64,000 nt of DNA, taken from contig JAZKJH010000003.1 in the NCBI GenBank assembly GCA_040384485.1, forward strand, positions 144,979 through 208,978, written 5' to 3'. The notes under the pieces were generated by a model that did not search any database, was not told the origin of the DNA, and saw nothing but the letters and a program-made list of their open reading frames with translations. The position numbers were made by a program, and so were the translations under genes. The DNA is from Patescibacteria group bacterium (GTDB taxonomy: Bacteria > Patescibacteriota > Minisyncoccia > Phycocordibacterales > DATDWN01). Positions 23,817-63,342 of this stretch are shown piece after piece. Position 1 is the first letter of the stretch, and the number at the start of each line of letters is the position of its first letter.

Positions 23817-24794
23817 ATGGCTTCGCTTAAAGATTTAAAAACTCAGTTTCTAGAATACATAGAGATAGAACGAGGTCGCTCTCTTAAAACTGTAGAAAAT
23901 TATGACCGATACATATCTAGGTTTTTAGGATTTTTGAAAAACGATGACCCGACAACAATAACCGACTCATCTGTTCGCGAGTTCCGTCTGTGGCTCAACA
24001 GACAACCAAACTTGCCATGGAAAACTCTTTTGAAAAACTCCGGGGTTGTGAAAAACAGGGATATAGACAAAACTCTTTCCAAAAGAACCCAGAACTACTA
24101 CCTCATTGCTCTACGCGCTTTTCTCAAGTACCTTGCACGCCAAGGTGTAAAAAGCATGTCTGCTGAAAGAATAGAGCTGGCAAAAGTAAGTGAACGTTCG
24201 CTAGATTTGATAACTCCAAACGAAATGTCTAGACTTATGTCCGCTCCAAACGGAAGTGACCTCAAATCTCTTCGCGACAAAGCCATCCTCGAGCTACTTT
24301 TCTCAACAGGACTCCGTGTGTCTGAGTTGTGTTCCCTACCTAGAGATATGGATATCAACTCTGACGAGCTATCTATTCGAGGAAAAGGTGGCAAGGTCCG
24401 AGTAGTTTTCATATCTGATGAAGCTCGAAATGCTGTGAAGACGTACCTAGCAAAAAGAAAAGATATGGAGGATGCATTGTTTGTGCGAGTAGGACGAGAT
24501 GGAGAGAAAAAAGCTAGTAAAAAAGAAATCAGTACCAGTAGTGCTTTGAACAGACACTCTATAGAAAGAATAGTTCGCCACTATGCAACTAAGGCTGGTT
24601 TGTCGAAAAAAGTTACTCCCCACACCATGCGCCACTTGTTTGCAACAGATTTACTATCAAACGGAGCAGATATTCGCTCAGTCCAAGCACTACTAGGGCA
24701 TTCTAGTATCATAACTACACAGATATATACACATGTGACGGATAGACATCTGAAGGATATACACAAAAAGTTCCACGGCAAAAACAAACGATAA
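23817..24794 (+). CDS. Tyrosine site-specific recombinase (XerC/XerD-like integrase)
   Basis: N-terminal SAM-like core-binding domain; catalytic residues in order: R (LRVSEL), HTMRHLFATDLL, LLGHSSIITTQIYTHV (His-x-x-Arg ... Tyr). Confidence 0.85.
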   Translation: MASLKDLKTQFLEYIEIERGRSLKTVENYDRYISRFLGFLKNDDPTTITDSSVREFRLWLNRQPNLPWKTLLKNSGVVKNRDIDKTLSKRTQNYYLIALRAFLKYLARQGVKSMSAERIELAKVSERSLDLITPNEMSRLMSAPNGSDLKSLRDKAILELLFSTGLRVSELCSLPRDMDINSDELSIRGKGGKVRVVFISDEARNAVKTYLAKRKDMEDALFVRVGRDGEKKASKKEISTSSALNRHSIERIVRHYATKAGLSKKVTPHTMRHLFATDLLSNGADIRSVQALLGHSSIITTQIYTHVTDRHLKDIHKKFHGKNKR

Positions 24795-31014: not shown

Positions 31015-31086
31015 GCACCCGTAGCTCAATGGATAGAGTACCGGTCTTCGGAACCGTGGATGTGGGTTCGATTCCTGCCGGGTGCA
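31015..31086 (+). tRNA. tRNA-Arg (anticodon TCG)
   Basis: Cloverleaf by eye: acceptor GCACCCG/CGGGTGC, D arm GCTC..GAGT, anticodon loop CTTCGGA, T loop TTCGATT; no encoded CCA. Confidence 0.6.
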
Positions 31087-31115
31087 CAATGAATGCTTTT
31101 TAGTGCGGCTTACGG

Positions 31116-31224
31116 AACTGGGAAACCCACGGTTTTCCCAATCCTTCCTCCACGGAAAACTCCCGTTTTCCGACCCTTTCCCACCCGGTACCCGCAGCAA
31201 AAATAACAGAGTTATTTTTTTCTG
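31116..31224 (-). mobile_element. ~110-nt structured element inserted immediately 3' of tRNA-Gly(GCC), flanked by a ~12-nt duplication of the tRNA 3' end; copy 1 of 2
   Basis: Internal hairpins GGGAAACCCACGGTTTTCCC and CGGAAAACTCCCGTTTTCCG. The tRNA 3' terminus TGCGGCTACCGG (31225-31236) recurs as TGCGGCTTACGG at 31104-31115 on the far side. Nearly identical to 32182-32293 in inverted orientation. Confidence 0.5.
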
Positions 31225-31295
31225 TGCGGCTACCGGGAATCGAACCCGAATCTCGTCCTTGGCAAGGACGTGTTCTACCACTAAACCATAGCCGC
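31225..31295 (-). tRNA. tRNA-Gly (anticodon GCC)
   Basis: Reverse complement reads GCGGCTATGGTTTAGTGGTAGAACACGTCCTTGCCAAGGACGAGATTCGGGTTCGATTCCCGGTAGCCGCA; anticodon stem CGTCC/GGACG, loop TTGCCAA. Confidence 0.8.
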
Positions 31296-31612
31296 AATCC
31301 CTAGAATAATACTATTATCCAAGCAAAAAGTAAAATTGTCTTTTTAGTGTTTAAAACTTAATGTTTTGTTAATAACTGTGGATAACCTTGTGGACATGTG
31401 TATTAAAGACAGGTCTTTGACTTCCCTGTTTTTGGAGTTTAAAAGTCAGTTTTTGATGATAATATGGCTACAAACAAGGGTTTTTAGAATAAGACAGCGC
31501 AGTTTATGCTACCAAGTGACAGGAGAATATGCATTTCACGTGAAACACACCTATAAATGTTACACATGTAACAAATAGACCTATTTTGTGGAAGGAGTTA
31601 TAATAATGTTAC

Positions 31613-32044
31613 ATGTGGAACAGAGCTAAAAAGGCTAAGGAACAGACTGAAAAGCAAAAAATTGGAAAGATAGGGGAGGATTCGGCTTGTGTTTATTTGG
31701 AAAGGACAGGTTTCGCTATTTTGGATAGAAATTACCTCAAAAAATGGGGAGAAATAGATATTGTGGCTAAAAAGAAGGATAAAATACATTTTGTGGAAGT
31801 AAAAAGTGTAAGTAGGAATTTGAATAACGTTTCGGATGAAACATTTGGTAGGGAAGGTGAATACCGGGCTGAAGACAATATGCATCCATGGAAACTAGAA
31901 CGCCTAGCTAGAGCCATCAGCTCATATCTATTGGACAAAAACGTTTCGGATGAAACAGAGTGGCAACTGGATCTGGCTGTCGTTTATGTGGATATGGATA
32001 AGAGACTTTCGAGAGTGGAAATTCTACATGACATAGTCCTATAG
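31613..32044 (+). CDS. YraN/UPF0102-family endonuclease-like protein
   Basis: GEDSACVYLERTGFAILDRNYLKKWGEIDIVAKKKDKIHFVEVKS matches the YraN core; preceded by GGAAGGAG Shine-Dalgarno. Confidence 0.65.
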   Translation: MWNRAKKAKEQTEKQKIGKIGEDSACVYLERTGFAILDRNYLKKWGEIDIVAKKKDKIHFVEVKSVSRNLNNVSDETFGREGEYRAEDNMHPWKLERLARAISSYLLDKNVSDETEWQLDLAVVYVDMDKRLSRVEILHDIVL

Positions 32045-32101
32045 AATAAATTGTAATTTGGAATCTTTGTGGTAGACTTGTTGAGTAATATATTTAGTAT
32101 A

Positions 32102-32172
32102 CGGGGTGTAGTATAGCGGTAGTATTCATGATTTGGGATCATGAGGCCCGAGTTCGATTCTCGGCACCCCGA
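32102..32172 (+). tRNA. tRNA-Pro (anticodon TGG)
   Basis: C1:G72 acceptor CGGGGTG/CACCCCG, anticodon stem CATGA/TCATG with loop TTTGGGA, T arm CCGAG-TTCGATT-CTCGG. Confidence 0.75.
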
Positions 32173-32181
32173 CAATAAAAT

Positions 32182-32293
32182 CTTTAGATTTTTGACGTGC
32201 CGAGAGGGAAAGGGTCGGAAAACGGGAGTTTTCCGTGGAGGAAGGCAACGAGCAAAGCGAGTGTTGGAAAACCGTGGGTTTCCAAGGACGGTA
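32182..32293 (+). mobile_element. Copy 2 of the ~110-nt structured element, immediately 3' of tRNA-Pro, flanked by a 15-nt direct repeat of the tRNA 3' end
   Basis: CCCCGACAATAAAAT occurs at 32167-32181 (tRNA-Pro 3' end plus trailer) and again at 32294-32308. The internal sequence is the reverse complement of the 31116-31224 element (shared core CCTTCCTCCACGGAAAACTCCCGTTTTCCGACCCTTTCCC). Confidence 0.5.
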
Positions 32294-32366
32294 ACCCCGA
32301 CAATAAAATTCTTCAGTTTTCAGTATTATCCTCGCAAAAAATTTTTGTTGCTGATATTATTTATTA

Positions 32367-35433: not shown

Positions 35434-35504
35434 ACGGGATTAGTTTAGTGGTAAAATGACTGCCTTCCAAGCAGTATACACCAGTTCGATTCTGGTATCC
35501 CGTA
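35434..35504 (+). tRNA. tRNA-Gly (anticodon TCC)
   Basis: Acceptor ACGGGAT/ATCCCGT, anticodon stem ACTGC/GCAGT with loop CTTCCAA, T arm ACCAG-TTCGATT-CTGGT; followed by a terminator. Confidence 0.7.
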
Positions 35505-35511
35505 CATTAAT

Positions 35512-38195: not shown

Positions 38196-39725
38196 TTACC
38201 TCGCAAACTCTATGCTTCGCATCTCTCTTATCACTGTCACTTTTATTTCTCCAGGATATTTTAATTCACTTTCTATTTTTACAGCAATATCCCTCGCCAT
38301 TTTTCTTGCTTCCAAATCAGTTACATCATTTGGAGTAACAAAAATTCTTATTTCTCTTCCTGCCTGTAGTGCGTATGCTTTTTCTACACCTTTGAATTGA
38401 GACGCAACAGCTTCTAAGTCTTTCAATCTCTTTAAGTAATTTTCAACACTGTCTCGTCTTGCTCCAGGTCTTCCACCAGAAATAGCATCTGCAGTTTGAA
38501 CTATCATAGACTCCACTGTTTCATATGGGTATTCTTCGTGATGAGCCTGCATCGCTTTGATTACCGCTTCATCAGTTCCAAATTTTTGTAAAATTCTTCT
38601 TCCAATTTCCACATGTGTTCCGACCACTTCATGATCAAGCGCTTTTCCTATGTCGTGCACCAGAGCTCCTGCTTTAGCCACAGCAACATTCGCTCCTATT
38701 TCTTCTGCTATCATTCCTGCAATATGAGTCATTTCTATAGAGTGGGCTAGGACATTTTGGCCATAACTTGTTCGGAAGTGTAGTCGTCCAAGAATAGATA
38801 TCACTCTTGGATCAAGGCCAATAACACCTGTTTCGTAAACAGCTTCTTCACCTTTCTCTTTCATCATTTTATTTACTTCTTCTTCTGACTTCTGAACCAT
38901 CTCCTCTATTTTTGCAGGTTGGATCCTTCCGTCAGCGATAAGTTTCTCTAAAGCGATTTTTGCAATTTGTCTTCGAACTGGATCAAAAGAAGATATAGTG
39001 ATAGAGCCTGGTGTGTCATCTACTATGACTTCAACTCCAGTCCATCTTTCAAAAGCTTTTATATTTCTACCTTCTTTTCCAATTATCTTTCCTTTTATTT
39101 CATCGTTCTGTATCGCAACATGGGTTGTAAGCATGTCAGAAGAAACAGAGTTCGCTAGTCGCTGGATAGAAGTAGCCAAAATAGACTTTGCTTTTTCTTC
39201 TAGTTTGTCTTCACCATCCTGTTCAAGTTTTTTTAGTCTTACTAAAATATCTTCTTCAGATTCTCTCTCAATTTTTTTAATTATCTCTTCTTTGGCTTGT
39301 TCGGGAGTTAGTCTAGCTATCTTCTGAAGTTCTTCTTTTTTCTCACGTTCAATTTTATCAGCATTTTCTCTAATTATTTTTATTTCTTCAATTCTTTTTT
39401 TAACTTCTTCTACTTCCTTGTCTATGTCTCTTTGTCTGCCATCAAGTAACTCATCTTTTTTGATAAGCCTTTCTTCTGTCTTTTTCAATCCTTCTTCTTT
39501 TTCTTTAGATTCCTTTCTGGCAACCTTTAGTATTTCTTCCGCCTCTTTCTCTGCCTCTTCTATTATTTTCTGTTCACGTTCTTTTGCAGCCAGCTCCATC
39601 TGTTTCAGGTCTAGTTCCATTGAACCTTTTTTCCCAAGGGAAATAATAAGGCGCAAATAGTAACCTAGCCCTAAAGAAACTAGGGAAGCTATGCTCAAAA
39701 GCAGCACAACTATTTTTAATGACAT
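38196..39725 (-). CDS. rny: Ribonuclease Y
   Basis: N-terminal TM, long coiled coil, KH domain (GKIIGKEGRNIK), HD domain (ALVHDIGKA), 509 aa. Confidence 0.9.
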   Translation of the reverse strand: MSLKIVVLLLSIASLVSLGLGYYLRLIISLGKKGSMELDLKQMELAAKEREQKIIEEAEKEAEEILKVARKESKEKEEGLKKTEERLIKKDELLDGRQRDIDKEVEEVKKRIEEIKIIRENADKIEREKKEELQKIARLTPEQAKEEIIKKIERESEEDILVRLKKLEQDGEDKLEEKAKSILATSIQRLANSVSSDMLTTHVAIQNDEIKGKIIGKEGRNIKAFERWTGVEVIVDDTPGSITISSFDPVRRQIAKIALEKLIADGRIQPAKIEEMVQKSEEEVNKMMKEKGEEAVYETGVIGLDPRVISILGRLHFRTSYGQNVLAHSIEMTHIAGMIAEEIGANVAVAKAGALVHDIGKALDHEVVGTHVEIGRRILQKFGTDEAVIKAMQAHHEEYPYETVESMIVQTADAISGGRPGARRDSVENYLKRLKDLEAVASQFKGVEKAYALQAGREIRIFVTPNDVTDLEARKMARDIAVKIESELKYPGEIKVTVIREMRSIEFAR

Positions 39726-49354: not shown

Positions 49355-50572
49355 ATGCCTTTATTTCACTATCAACTAATCGATCAAAAAGGTATCCGTT
49401 CAGAGGGTACCATGGAAGCGAGTGATAAGTTTGCTTTGTATAACATTATAAAAAAGGACGGAATTACCATAATAGGAGCAGAAGAATTGATGCACAAAAG
49501 CACGATGGAGGTCTTGAATAATCTTCCTATTTTTAACAGTGTAAAACTTCACGACAAGATTTTGTTTGCTAGAAACCTTTCTAAGATGTTAGATGCAGGG
49601 CTACCGATGACTCGAGCCTTAGCTATCATGCAAAGGGAAGCAAAAGGCGAGCTGAAGAAAGTTCTGACGAAACTAGAGGATTCACTTTCTAAAGGAGTTA
49701 GCTTGAGTGAAGGTATGAAACAGCACCCAAAAGTTTTCTCAACCTTGTTTATTTCGATGGTAAAAGCAGGAGAGGAGTCAGGCAATCTCTCTATTTCTTT
49801 GCAAAACGTTTCCCTGCAGATGGAAAAAAGTTATCAATTAAACAAAAAAATCAAAGGAGCTCTGATGTATCCGGCAGTTATTATTTGTCTTATGGTGGCT
49901 ATCGGAGTACTTATGATGATATATATGGTTCCAACTCTTACCGCTACTTTTACCAGTCTAAAAGTTGAGCTTCCTTTGGCTACCAGACTGATTATAGGCA
50001 CAAGTAATTTTCTAGTTAATTATTCGTTGTTGGTTTTAGTGGGAGTTGTGGCCTTAGGCTTTTCAGTTATGTATTCCATACGAACCACAAAAGGCCAAAG
50101 GTTTATGGATTGGTTTTTGCTCAAACTTCCTATTGTGGGAGACATGGTGAAACAAATTAACTCCGCTAGAACCGGAAGAACAATGTCATCCCTGGTGTCA
50201 TCGGGAGTAGATATTGTGGTTGCACTAGGAGTTACAAAAGATGTTTTGCAAAACTCATATTACAAAGAAGTGTTGGGGGAGGTCCAAAACACTATTCAAA
50301 AAGGAGCAACTATTTCTTCCGTACTTTCAAAACACGGCAACTTGTACCCGGTGTTTGTATCTGAAATGGCAGCTGTAGGAGAGGAAACAGGAAAAATAGG
50401 TGACATGCTACTCAGCGTGGCTTTATTCTATGAAGAAGAAATAGATCAAAAGACAAAGGATATGTCTTCGGTTATAGAACCTTTCCTCATGGTATTTATA
50501 GGCCTTGCTGTAGGGTTCTTCGCCATATCTATTATTAGTCCTATATACTCTATAGGAGACTCTATTGGATAA
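49355..50572 (+). CDS. pilC: Type IV pilus inner-membrane platform protein PilC (GspF family)
   Basis: Two GspF repeats, three TM segments, 405 aa. Confidence 0.9.
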   Translation: MPLFHYQLIDQKGIRSEGTMEASDKFALYNIIKKDGITIIGAEELMHKSTMEVLNNLPIFNSVKLHDKILFARNLSKMLDAGLPMTRALAIMQREAKGELKKVLTKLEDSLSKGVSLSEGMKQHPKVFSTLFISMVKAGEESGNLSISLQNVSLQMEKSYQLNKKIKGALMYPAVIICLMVAIGVLMMIYMVPTLTATFTSLKVELPLATRLIIGTSNFLVNYSLLVLVGVVALGFSVMYSIRTTKGQRFMDWFLLKLPIVGDMVKQINSARTGRTMSSLVSSGVDIVVALGVTKDVLQNSYYKEVLGEVQNTIQKGATISSVLSKHGNLYPVFVSEMAAVGEETGKIGDMLLSVALFYEEEIDQKTKDMSSVIEPFLMVFIGLAVGFFAISIISPIYSIGDSIG

Positions 50573-61869: not shown

Positions 61870-63342
61870 ATGGTGGTTTCATTATTTAGTGGATTTATTC
61901 TCGGGTTGTTTGTAGGGTCATTGACTACCTACTTAATTACCTTATGCTCAGTATTCTTTTTTCTATTTTTAATTTTCTTTTTTTACAAAAACTTTCTTCA
62001 AGAATCTCAGAAGAAAGTTTTTTTGTATATTGCAATATGTTTGTTAGGAATATCACTTGGTTTGCTTAGAATGAATTTTTCTAATTTGAATCAAGAGTCA
62101 GAACTCGCTTCTTATGTTGGGCAAAAAATTTCTGTGGTCGGAGTAGTTGTTTCAGAACCAGATGTTAGGGAATCTAGTACACGGTATCATGTTCGAATTA
62201 TTGAGGTTTTAGGTCCCAACATAATTCAAAAAATAGATGAAAAAATTTTGGTGAGTGTGCCTACGTATCCAAAGTTCAGTTATGGTGACAAAGTTGAGAT
62301 GGTGGTTACGCTTTCTGAACCAAGTGAAATAGAAAACGACGGACGAGTTTTTGATTATGTAAACTATTTGAGAGTGAGAGGGGTTTGGCTAACGAGTCGT
62401 TTTACAACCATAAAGTTTTTAGAAAGTGGACATGGAAATCCTGTCAAAGAAAAATTGTTTGCAATAAAAAGTTATTTTGTAAGTTCCATAAAAAATACTT
62501 TACCTGAACCAGAATCCAGTTTACTGGGTGGGCTATTGCTTGGCTCAAAGCAAAGTTTGGGTAAAGAACTTTTGGATGATTTTCAAAAAACTGGAGTGTC
62601 GCATATCGTGGTACTTTCTGGTTACAACATCGCACTTGTGGCAAATAGTATAGTTGAAGTTTTTAAATTTTTACCAAAACATTTGTCGTTTGGGTTCGGA
62701 GCGGTGGGAATATTTTTGTTCGCATTGTTGTCTGGTGGAGGAGCTTCTGTCTGGCGTGCGTCGATAATGGTGTTAGTTGCTTTGTTTGCGAAACACTCCA
62801 ACCGAGACTACAACGCGGCCAAGATATTGGGTTTCACAATCTTTGTGATGTTGTTTCCGAACCCGCTTCTCCTTGTGTTCGATCCGTCTTTCCAGCTGTC
62901 TGTGCTTGCCACAATCGGGCTGGTGTTTGTTTCACCAGTGTTATTGCCATATCTCACAAAGGTTCCAGAGAGGTTTGGTTTGCGAGAAATAGTTTCAACA
63001 ACTCTCTCCACACAGGTAACAGTGTTACCGCTACTTCTGTACAGTACCGGATTATTTTCTGTAGTTTCACTCCCTGTAAATATTTTAGTTCTTGTAACAA
63101 TACCGTTCGCTATGCTCTTAGGTTTTGTGACCGGACTCTTTGGACTTGTCTCTTTTTATCTAGCTTTCATTCCAGGAATTTTTACTTATATTTTTTTATG
63201 GTACGAACTAAAAGTTATCGAGGTAGGTGCTGACATTCCTTTTGCAGCAGTTTCACTACCTGCTTTTTCTCCAATTTTTCTTTTTGTTGTCTATGCAATT
63301 ATTTTCCTGTGGTTGTATATTTTGAAAAAGAAAAAACTCTAG
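61870..63342 (+). CDS. comEC: ComEC/Rec2-like DNA-uptake channel protein (DUF4131 plus competence domain; no metallo-beta-lactamase domain)
   Basis: Polytopic; conserved competence-domain stretch LLGGLLLGSKQSLGKELLDDFQKTGVSHIVVLSGYNIALVA; 490 aa. Confidence 0.75.
   Translation: MVVSLFSGFILGLFVGSLTTYLITLCSVFFFLFLIFFFYKNFLQESQKKVFLYIAICLLGISLGLLRMNFSNLNQESELASYVGQKISVVGVVVSEPDVRESSTRYHVRIIEVLGPNIIQKIDEKILVSVPTYPKFSYGDKVEMVVTLSEPSEIENDGRVFDYVNYLRVRGVWLTSRFTTIKFLESGHGNPVKEKLFAIKSYFVSSIKNTLPEPESSLLGGLLLGSKQSLGKELLDDFQKTGVSHIVVLSGYNIALVANSIVEVFKFLPKHLSFGFGAVGIFLFALLSGGGASVWRASIMVLVALFAKHSNRDYNAAKILGFTIFVMLFPNPLLLVFDPSFQLSVLATIGLVFVSPVLLPYLTKVPERFGLREIVSTTLSTQVTVLPLLLYSTGLFSVVSLPVNILVLVTIPFAMLLGFVTGLFGLVSFYLAFIPGIFTYIFLWYELKVIEVGADIPFAAVSLPAFSPIFLFVVYAIIFLWLYILKKKKL

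What the first reader, a model, noticed from the sequence alone, without database searches (positions are those of the whole stretch)
31100..32310. A ~110-nt structured element inserted in inverted orientation next to two tRNA genes, each copy flanked by a duplicated tRNA 3' end
Each copy carries two internal near-perfect hairpins (GGGAAACCCACGGTTTTCCC and CGGAAAACTCCCGTTTTCCG), and both share the same orientation relative to their tRNA.

Copy 1 (31116-31224) lies directly 3' of tRNA-Gly(GCC). The tRNA 3' end TGCGGCTACCGG recurs as TGCGGCTTACGG on the distal side.

Copy 2 (32182-32293) lies directly 3' of tRNA-Pro(TGG), with a perfect 15-nt direct repeat CCCCGACAATAAAAT on both sides. Its core is the exact reverse complement of copy 1's core (CCTTCCTCCACGGAAAACTCCCGTTTTCCGACCCTTTCCC).

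This is the footprint of site-specific insertion into tRNA 3' ends with att-like duplication, but the inserts are far too small to encode a recombinase. They therefore look like miniature non-autonomous integrative elements. Alternatively they could be decayed attL/attR remnants or conserved structured trailer RNAs.
Basis: seen in the sequence. Interest (0 to 1): 0.65.

Follow-up and report, generated by a model that had tools for sequence, protein, structure and literature searches.

The report
Structured mini-cassettes that duplicate gene tails
The two ~110-nt inserts beside tRNA genes belong to an apparently undescribed, widespread family of small, highly structured cassettes in ultra-small (CPR/Patescibacteria) bacteria that sit directly behind tRNA and ribosomal-protein genes, carry a spare copy of the gene's end, and are present or absent between close relatives.

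Summary
Two inverted copies share an identical 40-nt core, and each follows a tRNA in the tRNA's orientation, with a repeat of the tRNA 3' end on the far side.

These are insertions: close relatives have empty sites. They are not tRNA-specific and are not ordinary integrase footprints.

- **Distribution:** the same core (two covarying hairpins, optional extra hairpins, no Rfam match) occurs in more than 50 loci from many CPR lineages.
- **Position:** where the upstream gene could be identified, the core lies directly 3' of it and co-oriented. Targets are at least 17 tRNA types, rplL, rpsI, rpmG and other genes.
- **Arms:** each copy has a 5' arm antisense to the host gene's tail and a 3' direct copy of that tail.
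- **Coding history:** in protein genes the downstream copy still encodes the same C-terminal peptide. Of 41 differences, 37 are at third codon positions. The two tails therefore evolved separately as coding sequence.

My reading is a small non-autonomous cassette (replacement tail, antisense arm, structured core) that recombines into conserved genes, displaces the resident tail, and moves horizontally. The enzyme and the core's function are unknown. Nothing matched in viral, phage or plasmid collections, or in the literature searched.

The parts
31224..31295 (-). Host gene of copy 1: tRNA-Gly(GCC). Its last ~13-16 nt (31224-31239) form tail 'a1'.
   Evidence: ARAGORN; Rfam tRNA, 70.7 bits.
31199..31219 (-). 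A/T-rich hairpin between tRNA-Gly and the 5' arm (AAAAAUAAC-UCU-GUUAUUUUU). It is the centre of the long palindrome formed by the tRNA tail plus trailer and its inverted copy.
   Evidence: Sequence; fold.
31184..31196 (-). Copy 1, 5' arm (a1'): TGCGGGTACCGGG, antisense to the tRNA-Gly 3' end CCCGGTAGCCGCA (12 of 13 positions).
   Evidence: The 5' arm pairs with the upstream gene end across the family.
31118..31183 (-). Copy 1 core (minimal type). Order: GGGAAAGG; H1 at 31153-31172 (CGGAAAAC-GGGA-GUUUUCCG); GGAGGAAGG-AUU; H2 at 31120-31139 (GGGAAAACC-GUG-GGUUUCCC); AG.
   Evidence: Covariance model R1, 86.3 bits. 100% identical to the cores in L004 (after tRNA-Met) and L043 (after tRNA-Pro).
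31103..31117 (-). Copy 1, 3' arm (a2): TTCCGTAAGCCGCAC, a decayed direct copy of the tRNA-Gly tail.
   Evidence: (D7).
31015..31087 (+). Neighbouring tRNA-Arg(TCG), convergent with copy 1. In relatives without the element (L058, L059) it lies in tandem, 11-18 nt behind tRNA-Gly, on the same strand.
32102..32173 (+). Host gene of copy 2: tRNA-Pro(TGG).
32166..32192 (+). Tail a1 of copy 2: the last 8 nt of the tRNA-Pro call plus trailer (ACCCCGACAATAAAATCTTTAGATTTT), including a small A/T hairpin.
   Evidence: D4.
32197..32205 (+). Copy 2, 5' arm (a1'): GTGCCGAGA, antisense to the tRNA-Pro T-stem/acceptor segment TCTCGGCAC.
   Evidence: I8. The same arm occurs in the orthologous elements L059, L043 and L049.
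32205..32286 (+). Copy 2 core: H1 at 32216-32235; an extra hairpin Hv at 32245-32265 (GCA-ACGAGC-AAA-GCGAGU-GUU, with tandem G.A pairs); H2 at 32266-32283.
   Evidence: R1, 85.6 bits; alignment.
32287..32320 (+). Copy 2, 3' arm (a2): GGACGGTAACCCCGACAATAAAAT plus a diverged trailer copy. It is a direct repeat of the tRNA-Pro tail (16 nt perfect).
   Evidence: (D4).
35434..35505 (+). Comparison site: tRNA-Gly(TCC) followed by an ordinary terminator and no element. The orthologous tRNA in L012 carries a diverged element.

Best explanation
Each copy is a small (about 110-300 bp) non-autonomous 'tail-replacing' insertion cassette. It is made of a replacement copy of the last 14-85 nt of a conserved, highly expressed host gene, then an arm antisense to that tail, then a conserved multi-hairpin core. 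The cassette sits inside the 3' end of the host gene, so the gene stays intact. The resident tail is displaced to the far side of the core, and this displaced tail is the 'direct repeat'.

Shown:
- It is an insertion, polymorphic between close relatives.
- The same core sits behind many different genes.
- The two tails have separate coding histories, so one tail arrived with the cassette from another lineage.
- Cassettes occur in tandem and share arms with other cargos.
- The core's hairpins covary on the gene-sense strand.

Inferred:
- Spread is by recombination within the conserved target gene on the left, and between the carried or displaced tail copy and the resident tail on the right. Host recombination after DNA uptake is the most likely route; the window encodes ComEC. 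Loss would be by recombination between the two tail copies.
- The core is transcribed by read-through from the host gene. In several loci it lies between co-oriented tRNAs of one cluster. It would be released as a structured, purine-rich (GGA/GGAGG-rich) RNA closed by the two arms.
- The core's strong sequence conservation implies a trans-acting partner or a function in 3'-end handling. That function is unknown.
For: Family and position:
- A genome scan gave 22 CPR loci and a metagenome scan gave 32.
- Covariance model R1 gave 57 hits of 58-88 bits in 372 kb of loci.
- Of 46 non-redundant loci, 28 directly follow a same-strand tRNA of at least 17 isoacceptor types. Eleven follow the stop codon of bL12, uS9, bL33 or other proteins.

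Arms:
- The longest exact direct repeat has a median of 11.5 nt against 8 in the null. The inverted repeat has a median of 11.5 against 6.
- The 5' arm pairs with the upstream gene end at -29.3 kcal/mol against -15.1 for controls (p = 3e-14). It pairs with the downstream copy at -19.7 against -15.5 (p = 1e-5).

Insertion polymorphism:
- The tRNA-Pro site is empty in L058 and L060 and filled in L059 and the window.
- The tRNA-Gly/tRNA-Arg site is empty in L058 and L059.
- The tRNA-Gly(TCC) site is filled in L012 and empty in the window.

Separate coding histories of the two tails:
- Across six loci there are 41 nucleotide differences, 37 of them at codon position 3.
- Only 2 of 37 changed codons alter the residue. 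The null expectation is 26.7, with a minimum of 18 in 20,000 trials.
- In L025 a 28-codon tail is duplicated. The first 39 nt are nearly identical and the rest is a diverged, orthologue-like tail.
- In the older uS9 lineage the downstream copy has decayed.

Tandem and alternative cargos: L002, L036 with a 76-nt perfect repeat followed by cargo Y, L059.

Structure:
- 95.4% of cells are paired, 13 of 15 pairs show double changes, and 0 of 500 shuffles reach this.
- H2 variants such as GGGAAAACC/GGUUUCCC, UGAGAACC/GGUUCUCA and CCAAAACC/GGUUUUGG are compensatory.
- The H1 loop is G-N-N-A in 56 of 57 hits.
- Tandem G.A pairs and CUUG and GCGAAGC loops appear only on the sense strand.

Transcription context: the core lies between co-oriented tRNAs in L038, L051 and L055.

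Genes in the window: ComEC and a Xer-like tyrosine recombinase.
Against: - No experiment or expression data exist, so transcription and any RNA function are inferred.
- Right-hand junctions such as L053 show at most 5-nt identical runs between the two tails. Classical RecA recombination inside the tail is therefore unlikely there; a microhomology or site-specific join is needed.
- The model does not explain how a cassette acquires arms for a new target gene. Yet the cores at tRNA-Arg(TCT) and tRNA-Arg(GCG) of one MAG differ at only one position and sit between quite different arms. This needs either recent retargeting or gene conversion between cores.
- Why the antisense arm exists is not explained by recombination alone. 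It co-varies with the tRNA T stem in the orthologous elements of the window, L012 and L001, which suggests a function of the gene-tail:arm hairpin.
- Single-sequence folding energies are not unusual on the tRNA-sense strand (z = -0.98 and +0.61; opposite strand -2.66 and -0.99).
- Ascertainment: the loci were found with patterns that fix part of H1.
Confidence: 0.45

Rival explanations
1. These are miniature integrative elements moved in trans by a tyrosine (Xer/phage-type) integrase. The duplicated tail is attL/attR, and the core carries the recombinase binding sites.
For: - Direct repeats of the gene tail, tandem arrays and clean empty sites.
- Tails with separate coding histories are the classical signature of attP-borne gene ends.
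- A tyrosine recombinase is encoded in the window at 23817-24794.
Against: - One conserved core is joined to at least 23 unrelated tails with no shared core sequence.
- Repeat length varies from about 9 to 85 nt.
- No integrase is adjacent in any locus.
- The core is absent from 2.9 million viral contigs and from the phage and plasmid collections.
- The hairpins carry GNRA and CUUG loops and tandem G.A pairs. These point to a folded single strand, not duplex protein-binding sites.
Confidence: 0.17
2. This is a SINE-like retroposon. The core RNA is reverse-transcribed at nicks behind highly transcribed genes. Staggered nicks give a target duplication of variable length, and snap-back priming of the target 3' end creates the antisense arm.
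For: - A structured, RNA-like core that is always co-oriented with the upstream transcript.
- Variable repeat length.
- The antisense arm together with the trailer forms one long palindrome with the gene tail, as fold-back synthesis would give (L004, L043, L020).
- Near-identical cores at different targets within one genome.
Against: - A fresh target duplication would start identical and its non-functional copy would decay at random. Instead, 37 of 41 differences are at third codon positions.
- Group II introns are reported absent from Patescibacteria (PMC13011429).
- No reverse transcriptase was seen among the 20 window ORFs that were scanned. The scan was partial.
Confidence: 0.12
3. The element is a resident cis-acting RNA (3'-end processing, termination or antitermination element, or riboswitch-like) that is not mobile. 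The repeats exist because alternative pairings (tail:arm versus arm:tail-copy) are needed for function.
For: - Extreme conservation of the core and covarying hairpins.
- Constant orientation and position.
- The arm tracks lineage-specific T-stem changes in orthologous loci.
- The arms close a multi-branch junction in many minimum-free-energy folds.
Against: - Presence/absence between relatives with 75-81% YraN identity.
- The third-codon-position pattern of the tail copies. A pairing constraint would be independent of codon position.
- Tandem cassettes, and other cargos carried between the same arms.
Confidence: 0.1
4. These are decayed junction remnants of larger prophages or islands, or assembly or duplication artefacts.
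For: tRNA-Pro in relatives shows other nested insertions and tail duplications (L012, L043, L061).
Against: - The elements are about 100-300 nt.
- The core is identical over 66 nt in unrelated contexts.
- Independent assemblies agree.
Confidence: 0.03

Closest known systems
tRNA-gene-targeting integrative elements and their integrase-less derivatives (CIMEs), and tycheposon-type tRNA islands (preprint 10.1101/2020.12.28.424599, seen; details from memory)
   Same: They insert in the 3' end of a tRNA or protein gene, and the element supplies a replacement tail while the resident tail is displaced as a direct repeat. Tandem arrays and remnants occur. Tails of different origin differ at synonymous sites.
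   Different: This element is 100-300 nt with no ORF. One conserved core serves at least 23 different targets. It has a target-matched antisense arm and structured single-strand motifs. It was not found in viral or plasmid collections.
MITEs and REP/REPIN/PATE-type palindromic repeats
   Same: Small, non-coding, multi-copy, hairpin-rich, intergenic elements that depend on functions supplied in trans.
   Different: There are no family-wide terminal inverted repeats. The 'inverted repeat' is made of target sequence and differs at every target. The duplication is long and variable rather than a fixed short target-site duplication. Position is strictly at gene 3' ends, in gene orientation.
Casposons (Cas1-mediated integration at the 3' ends of tRNA-Pro/Leu and aEF-2 genes; 14-15-bp target-site duplication; PMC5137440)
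   Same: They target the 3' ends of tRNA genes and of conserved translation genes, and they duplicate about 14-20 nt of the gene tail.
   Different: Casposons are 8-20 kb, carry Cas1 and PolB, have terminal inverted repeats and give a fixed-length duplication. Here the duplication runs from 9 to 85 nt and the copies have separate coding histories.
Guide-bearing mobile RNAs and DNAs: the group I intron internal guide sequence (P1), group II intron EBS, IS200/IS605 guide tetranucleotides, IS110 bridge RNA (from memory)
   Same: A segment inside the element, next to a conserved folded core, is complementary to the flanking target.
   Different: There is no Rfam intron hit, and the element is far too small for a group I or II core. 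Those elements do not duplicate the target. No cognate protein is adjacent.
tRNA 3' external transcribed spacer RNAs and 3'-UTR-derived small RNAs (e.g. 3'ETS-leuZ; from memory)
   Same: A discrete RNA that would be released from a tRNA or mRNA precursor by the host's processing enzymes.
   Different: Those are locus-specific sequences, not a multi-copy mobile module flanked by duplicated target tails.

Membership tests
Integrase-mobilised integrative element / CIME | The insert is flanked by a direct repeat of the 3' end of the target gene (attL/attR). | tested here: met
   perfect repeats of 14-20 nt in many loci, and 76 nt in L036.
Integrase-mobilised integrative element / CIME | A cognate integrase is encoded in or next to the element, or the element is accreted to an element that has one. 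| tested here: not met
   There is no ORF inside the element, and in the loci where flanking genes were annotated (L058-L062, window) they are housekeeping genes. The only tyrosine recombinase found in the window lies about 7 kb away and looks Xer-like.
Integrase-mobilised integrative element / CIME | One att core sequence per element family. | tested here: not met
   At least 17 tRNA types and at least 6 protein genes serve as targets, and their tails share no motif.
MITE | Terminal inverted repeats that are conserved among copies. | tested here: not met
   The arms differ at every target and match the local gene.
MITE | A short target-site duplication of fixed length. | tested here: not met
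   Repeats run from about 9 to 85 nt, and the copies differ at synonymous sites.
Casposon-derived element | Cas1 (casposase) and PolB, terminal inverted repeats, and a 14-15-bp target-site duplication. | tested here: not met
   No ORFs, no terminal inverted repeats, and variable repeat length. A trans-acting Cas1 was not looked for.
Group I intron | A catalytic core (P3-P9, about 200 nt or more) detectable with Rfam Intron_gpI. | tested here: not met
   No hit at E <= 10 in the window region and none at E <= 0.1 in 12 loci, including the larger variants. The core is 64-143 nt.
Group I intron | Splicing joins the flanking exons. | not testable with these tools
   Old downstream tail copies are decayed (tRNA-Gly and tRNA-Pro in the window; the uS9 lineage), which argues against their use as exons.
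Any Rfam 15 RNA family | A score at or above the family's gathering threshold. | tested here: not met
   only the tRNAs pass.
Diversity-generating retroelement (TR/VR tail duplication) | Differences between the two tail copies are confined to adenines of one copy, and a reverse transcriptase is adjacent. | tested here: not met
   In L053 only 2 of 9 differing positions are A in either copy (read by eye from the sequences). No adjacent ORF.
Integron cassette attC | Conserved R''/R' core sites (RYYYAAC/GTTRRRY) at the ends of an imperfect palindrome. | tested here: not met
   The arms are target-derived and variable. The resemblance is limited to 'inverted arms around a structured centre'.
SINE-like retroposon | An RNA intermediate and a partner reverse transcriptase. 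| not testable with these tools
   There are no expression data, and only a 64-kb window of the genome is available.

The most novel reading that the evidence does not exclude
The antisense 5' arm is a programmable guide. The conserved core would be a folded RNA or single-stranded DNA that directs its own insertion behind any sequence complementary to the arm. It would do this either by itself (ribozyme-like) or with a conserved CPR protein, and it would copy the target tail as it inserts. That would make it a minimal guide-directed mobile element, retargeted by changing 13-25 nt.
Probability: 0.12. Interest if true: 0.92.

Novelty: new variant of a known kind. Interest (0 to 1): 0.78.

Why it matters
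- **Mobile DNA in reduced genomes:** CPR/Patescibacteria have tiny, streamlined genomes in which little mobile DNA is expected. This would be a superphylum-wide family of very small cassettes, with a core as short as 64-66 nt, that colonise the 3' ends of the most conserved and most highly expressed genes without harming them.
- **Evidence of gene flow:** their displaced gene tails record horizontal transfer between lineages. That gives a direct marker for DNA exchange in organisms that are hard to culture.
- **An uncatalogued RNA:** the core's near-invariance and RNA-type motifs point to an abundant, uncharacterised small RNA, or a recombination substrate, with an unknown conserved partner.
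- **Possible new mechanism:** if the arms turn out to guide insertion, this would be a new and very compact programmable insertion system.

Tried and rejected
- **Known RNA family:** none found. Searched with Rfam gathering and E-value modes on the window and on 12 loci.
- **Phage or plasmid origin:** none found. Four scans of viral contigs gave nothing or only chance hits in coding sequence. blastn against the phage and plasmid collections gave no match.
- **tRNA-specific element:** rejected after finding copies behind rplL, rpsI, rpmG and other genes.
- **Simple target-site duplication or fold-back as the sole origin of the repeat:** rejected by the third-codon-position pattern.
- **Pairing constraint as the cause of that pattern:** rejected, because a pairing constraint would be independent of codon position.
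- **DGR-type TR/VR:** the differences are not adenine-specific.
- **Peptide coding in the core:** rejected. The variable hairpin changes length by non-multiples of 3 (3 versus 22 nt), and there is no conserved ORF.
- **tRNA-like cloverleaf:** the Rfam tRNA model gives no weak hit on the element. The order 'stem / H1 / variable arm / H2' and the CGUGGGUUC string resemble a tRNA only loosely.
- **Group I P4-J4/5-P5 resemblance (GGGAAAGGGGUC):** recalled from memory and not supported by any search.
- **Single-sequence folding z-scores:** uninformative.
- **G.U versus A.C count as a strand test:** confounded by the bulged A in H2.
- **Not attempted:** copy number per complete genome, and phylogenetic profiling for a protein partner. 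The tools do not give whole genomes.
Full report
**What is in the window.** tRNA-Gly(GCC) lies at 31224-31295(-) and tRNA-Pro(TGG) at 32102-32173(+). Each is followed, in its own orientation, by a G+C-rich element: 54-55% G+C in a genome of 39%. The two elements share an identical 40-nt segment and an identical second hairpin, with none expected by chance. On the tRNA-sense strand each element reads as follows:
- a 5' arm;
- GGGAAAGG;
- hairpin H1 (GUCGGAAAAC-GGGA-GUUUUCCG);
- UGGAGGAAGG;
- either 3 nt (copy 1) or a 21-nt hairpin Hv (copy 2);
- hairpin H2 (GGAAAACC-GUG-GGUUUCC);
- AG;
- a 3' arm.

The 3' arm repeats the tRNA tail. In copy 2 it is 16 nt perfect and extends into the trailer. In copy 1 it is a decayed copy.

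**It is a large family, and not tRNA-specific.**
- A degenerate H1 pattern found 22 loci in GTDB genomes labelled Saccharibacteria, Parcubacteria, Paceibacterota, Moraniibacteriota, Zambryskibacteria and Minisyncoccia.
- It found 32 true loci in metagenomes.
- A covariance model built from these gave 57 hits of 58-88 bits in 372 kb of loci, plus diverged copies.
- Where the upstream gene could be identified, the element is co-oriented with it and begins 0-90 nt after its end.
- 28 of 46 non-redundant loci follow an ARAGORN-called tRNA. These cover Gly, Pro x2, Ser x3, Met, Arg x4, Glu, His, Ile, Gln x2, Ala and Val.
- 11 follow the stop codon of a protein gene: bL12 in four lineages, uS9 in several more, bL33, a surface protein of more than 2,500 aa, and a PHP-domain protein.
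- In a few loci the upstream gene was not identified.
- In L038, L051 and L055 the element lies between co-oriented tRNAs.

**The arms are systematic.**
- Across 46 loci the longest exact direct repeat between the two flanks has a median of 11.5 nt (null 8). Many are 14-20 nt and perfect.
- The longest inverted match between the 5' arm and the upstream gene end has a median of 11.5 nt (null 6).
- Duplex energies show that the 5' arm pairs with the upstream gene tail (-29.3 against -15.1 kcal/mol, p = 3e-14). It pairs more weakly with the downstream copy (-19.7 against -15.5, p = 1e-5). The upstream pairing is the stronger one in 32 of 43 loci.
- In several copies the two arms close a multi-branch junction that holds H1, Hv, H2 and a further hairpin.

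**The core is a conserved folded single strand.**
- On the model alignment 95.4% of cells pair, and 13 of 15 pairs show changes on both sides. No shuffle and no slid register approaches this. One caveat applies: the alignment is fitted to the model, and part of H1 was fixed by the search patterns.
- H2 was not constrained by the patterns that retrieved the loci, and it shows many compensatory variants.
- A diverged copy in L012 has H1 = GGGAGAG-GAUA-CUCUCCC, with three compensatory pairs.
- H1 loops are G-N-N-A in 56 of 57 hits.
- Hv and the further hairpin carry tandem G.A pairs and CUUG, GNRA or GCGAAGC loops on the gene-sense strand only. This favours an RNA, or possibly single-stranded DNA, of that strand.
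- No Rfam 15 family matches.
- The 66-nt minimal core of copy 1 is identical to the cores behind tRNA-Met (L004) and tRNA-Pro (L043) in other assemblies.

**It is an insertion.** I used the YraN gene that lies between the two copies to fetch orthologous loci.
- **tRNA-Pro site:** empty in L058 (YraN 81% identical; the next gene starts 12 nt after the tRNA) and in L060 (75%). Filled in L059 (78%) and in the window.
- **tRNA-Gly/tRNA-Arg site:** in L058 and L059 the two tRNAs are tandem neighbours 11-18 nt apart with no element. In the window, L001 and L012 the element lies between them and tRNA-Arg is inverted.
- **tRNA-Gly(TCC) site:** carries a diverged element in L012 and an ordinary terminator in the window.

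**The two tails have separate coding histories.** In six protein-gene loci the downstream copy still encodes the C-terminal peptide and a stop codon. In L053, for example, both copies read CKAHTKHKEAKK*.
- Of 41 nucleotide differences, 37 are at third codon positions.
- Only 2 of 37 changed codons alter the residue. Random change would alter 26.7 on average, and never fewer than 18 in 20,000 trials.
- In L025 a 28-codon tail is duplicated. The first 39 nt are nearly identical and the rest looks like an orthologue's tail.
- In the older uS9-linked lineage the downstream copy has lost the peptide or the stop codon.

A fresh target-site duplication followed by neutral decay cannot give this pattern, and neither can a pairing constraint. 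One tail must have arrived from another lineage as part of the cassette. The 5' arm matches the in-gene tail at synonymous sites (L029, L039), so I take the in-gene tail, the arm and the core as the imported block and the downstream copy as the displaced resident tail.

**Further hints.**
- Cassettes occur in tandem (L002, L059).
- In L036 a 76-nt block (tail, trailer and arm) is repeated perfectly, first before the core and then before a different 90-nt cargo.
- Other small cargos bracketed by duplicated tRNA tails exist in L012, L043, L061 and L025.
- Two cassettes in one MAG have cores differing at only one position between unrelated arms.
- The same target, tRNA-Glu, carries different core subtypes in different genomes.
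- These last two points suggest that cores are exchanged or homogenised while arms stay with the locus.

**Mechanism.**
- *Shown:* the element is a polymorphic, horizontally moving, tail-replacing cassette with a conserved structured core.
- *Inferred:* it enters by recombination within the conserved gene and at the start of the tail copy. The right junction can have only about 5 nt of identity (L053), so a microhomology or site-specific join is needed. It leaves by recombination between the two tail copies.
- The window encodes ComEC and a Xer-like recombinase. Neither is linked to the element by any evidence.
- The core is probably transcribed by read-through and released as a purine-rich structured RNA. 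Its partner and its function are unknown.
- I put about 0.8 on 'mobile tail-replacing cassette' in general and 0.45 on the specific host-recombination version.
- The rivals are a trans-acting integrase, a SINE-like retroposon with fold-back priming, and a non-mobile cis-acting RNA. They are scored separately in this report.

**Novelty.** No Rfam family matches. Nothing was found in IMG/VR, INPHARED or PLSDB. No paper in the searched library contains the core sequence or describes the arrangement. A recent paper on Patescibacteria tRNA introns concerns anticodon-loop group I introns, not this element (PMC13011429). The closest known kinds are integrative elements and their integrase-less derivatives. 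No known family combines one conserved structured core with target-matched antisense and duplicated-tail arms at dozens of different gene ends.

Noticed in passing
L012:5841-6072; L043:780-1010: A tRNA-Pro 5' half (running to the anticodon loop) is followed by a 22-nt spacer, a complete tRNA-Pro(TGG), a 54-75-nt hairpin filler and a 31-33-nt tRNA-Pro 3' part. In L043 the outer halves are of the window type and the inner gene is of the L012 type. It looks as if a small cassette carrying its own tRNA-Pro had split the resident gene.
   Followed up: partly
window 31015-31087 versus L058:1929-2093 and L059:424-579: tRNA-Arg(TCG) is inverted in the window, L001, L012 and L061 relative to L058 and L059. 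In those two it lies in tandem 11-18 nt behind tRNA-Gly(GCC). In the window, L001 and L012 the inversion coincides with an element lying between the two tRNAs; in L061 a different 277-nt filler lies there.
   Followed up: partly
L036:2040-2130; L061:3700-3815 and 1210-1486; L025:1360-1540: Other small non-coding cargos are bracketed by duplicated tRNA tails (28-76-nt perfect repeats). One of them shares a GUACUG...CUGUAAG module with the large inserts found inside the cores of L008, L018 and L012:7950-8000.
   Followed up: no
window 23817-24794(+), 61870-63342(+), 49355-50572(+), 38196-39725(-): The window encodes a Xer/phage-type tyrosine recombinase, ComEC, a type II secretion system protein F family protein (T2SSF) and RNase Y. 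These are relevant background for recombination, DNA uptake and RNA processing, but nothing links them to the element.
   Followed up: partly
L008:2625-2890(-), L037:1913-2110(-), L034:2606-3262(-): These cassettes have arms of tRNA-Gln, tRNA-Glu or other tRNA type, but ARAGORN calls no tRNA upstream. The upstream genes may be intron-containing tRNAs of the kind reported for Patescibacteria (PMC13011429).
   Followed up: no
L017:3100-3230(-) (same sequence as L024:960-1090): Downstream of the rplL-linked element and its second terminator lies a G+C-rich stretch (GACGGAAGUCCGCGUGCC...GGGGAGGACUGAGUCCGGG). It may be another structured RNA. There was no Rfam hit at E <= 0.1 in L024.
   Followed up: no
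many loci, e.g. L031:9300-9312, L036:2160-2175(-), L005:1275-1290(-): The heptamer GCGAAGC recurs in the optional hairpins of the core. From memory, it is known as an unusually stable mini-hairpin in DNA. This leaves open a single-stranded-DNA role for the fold.
   Followed up: no
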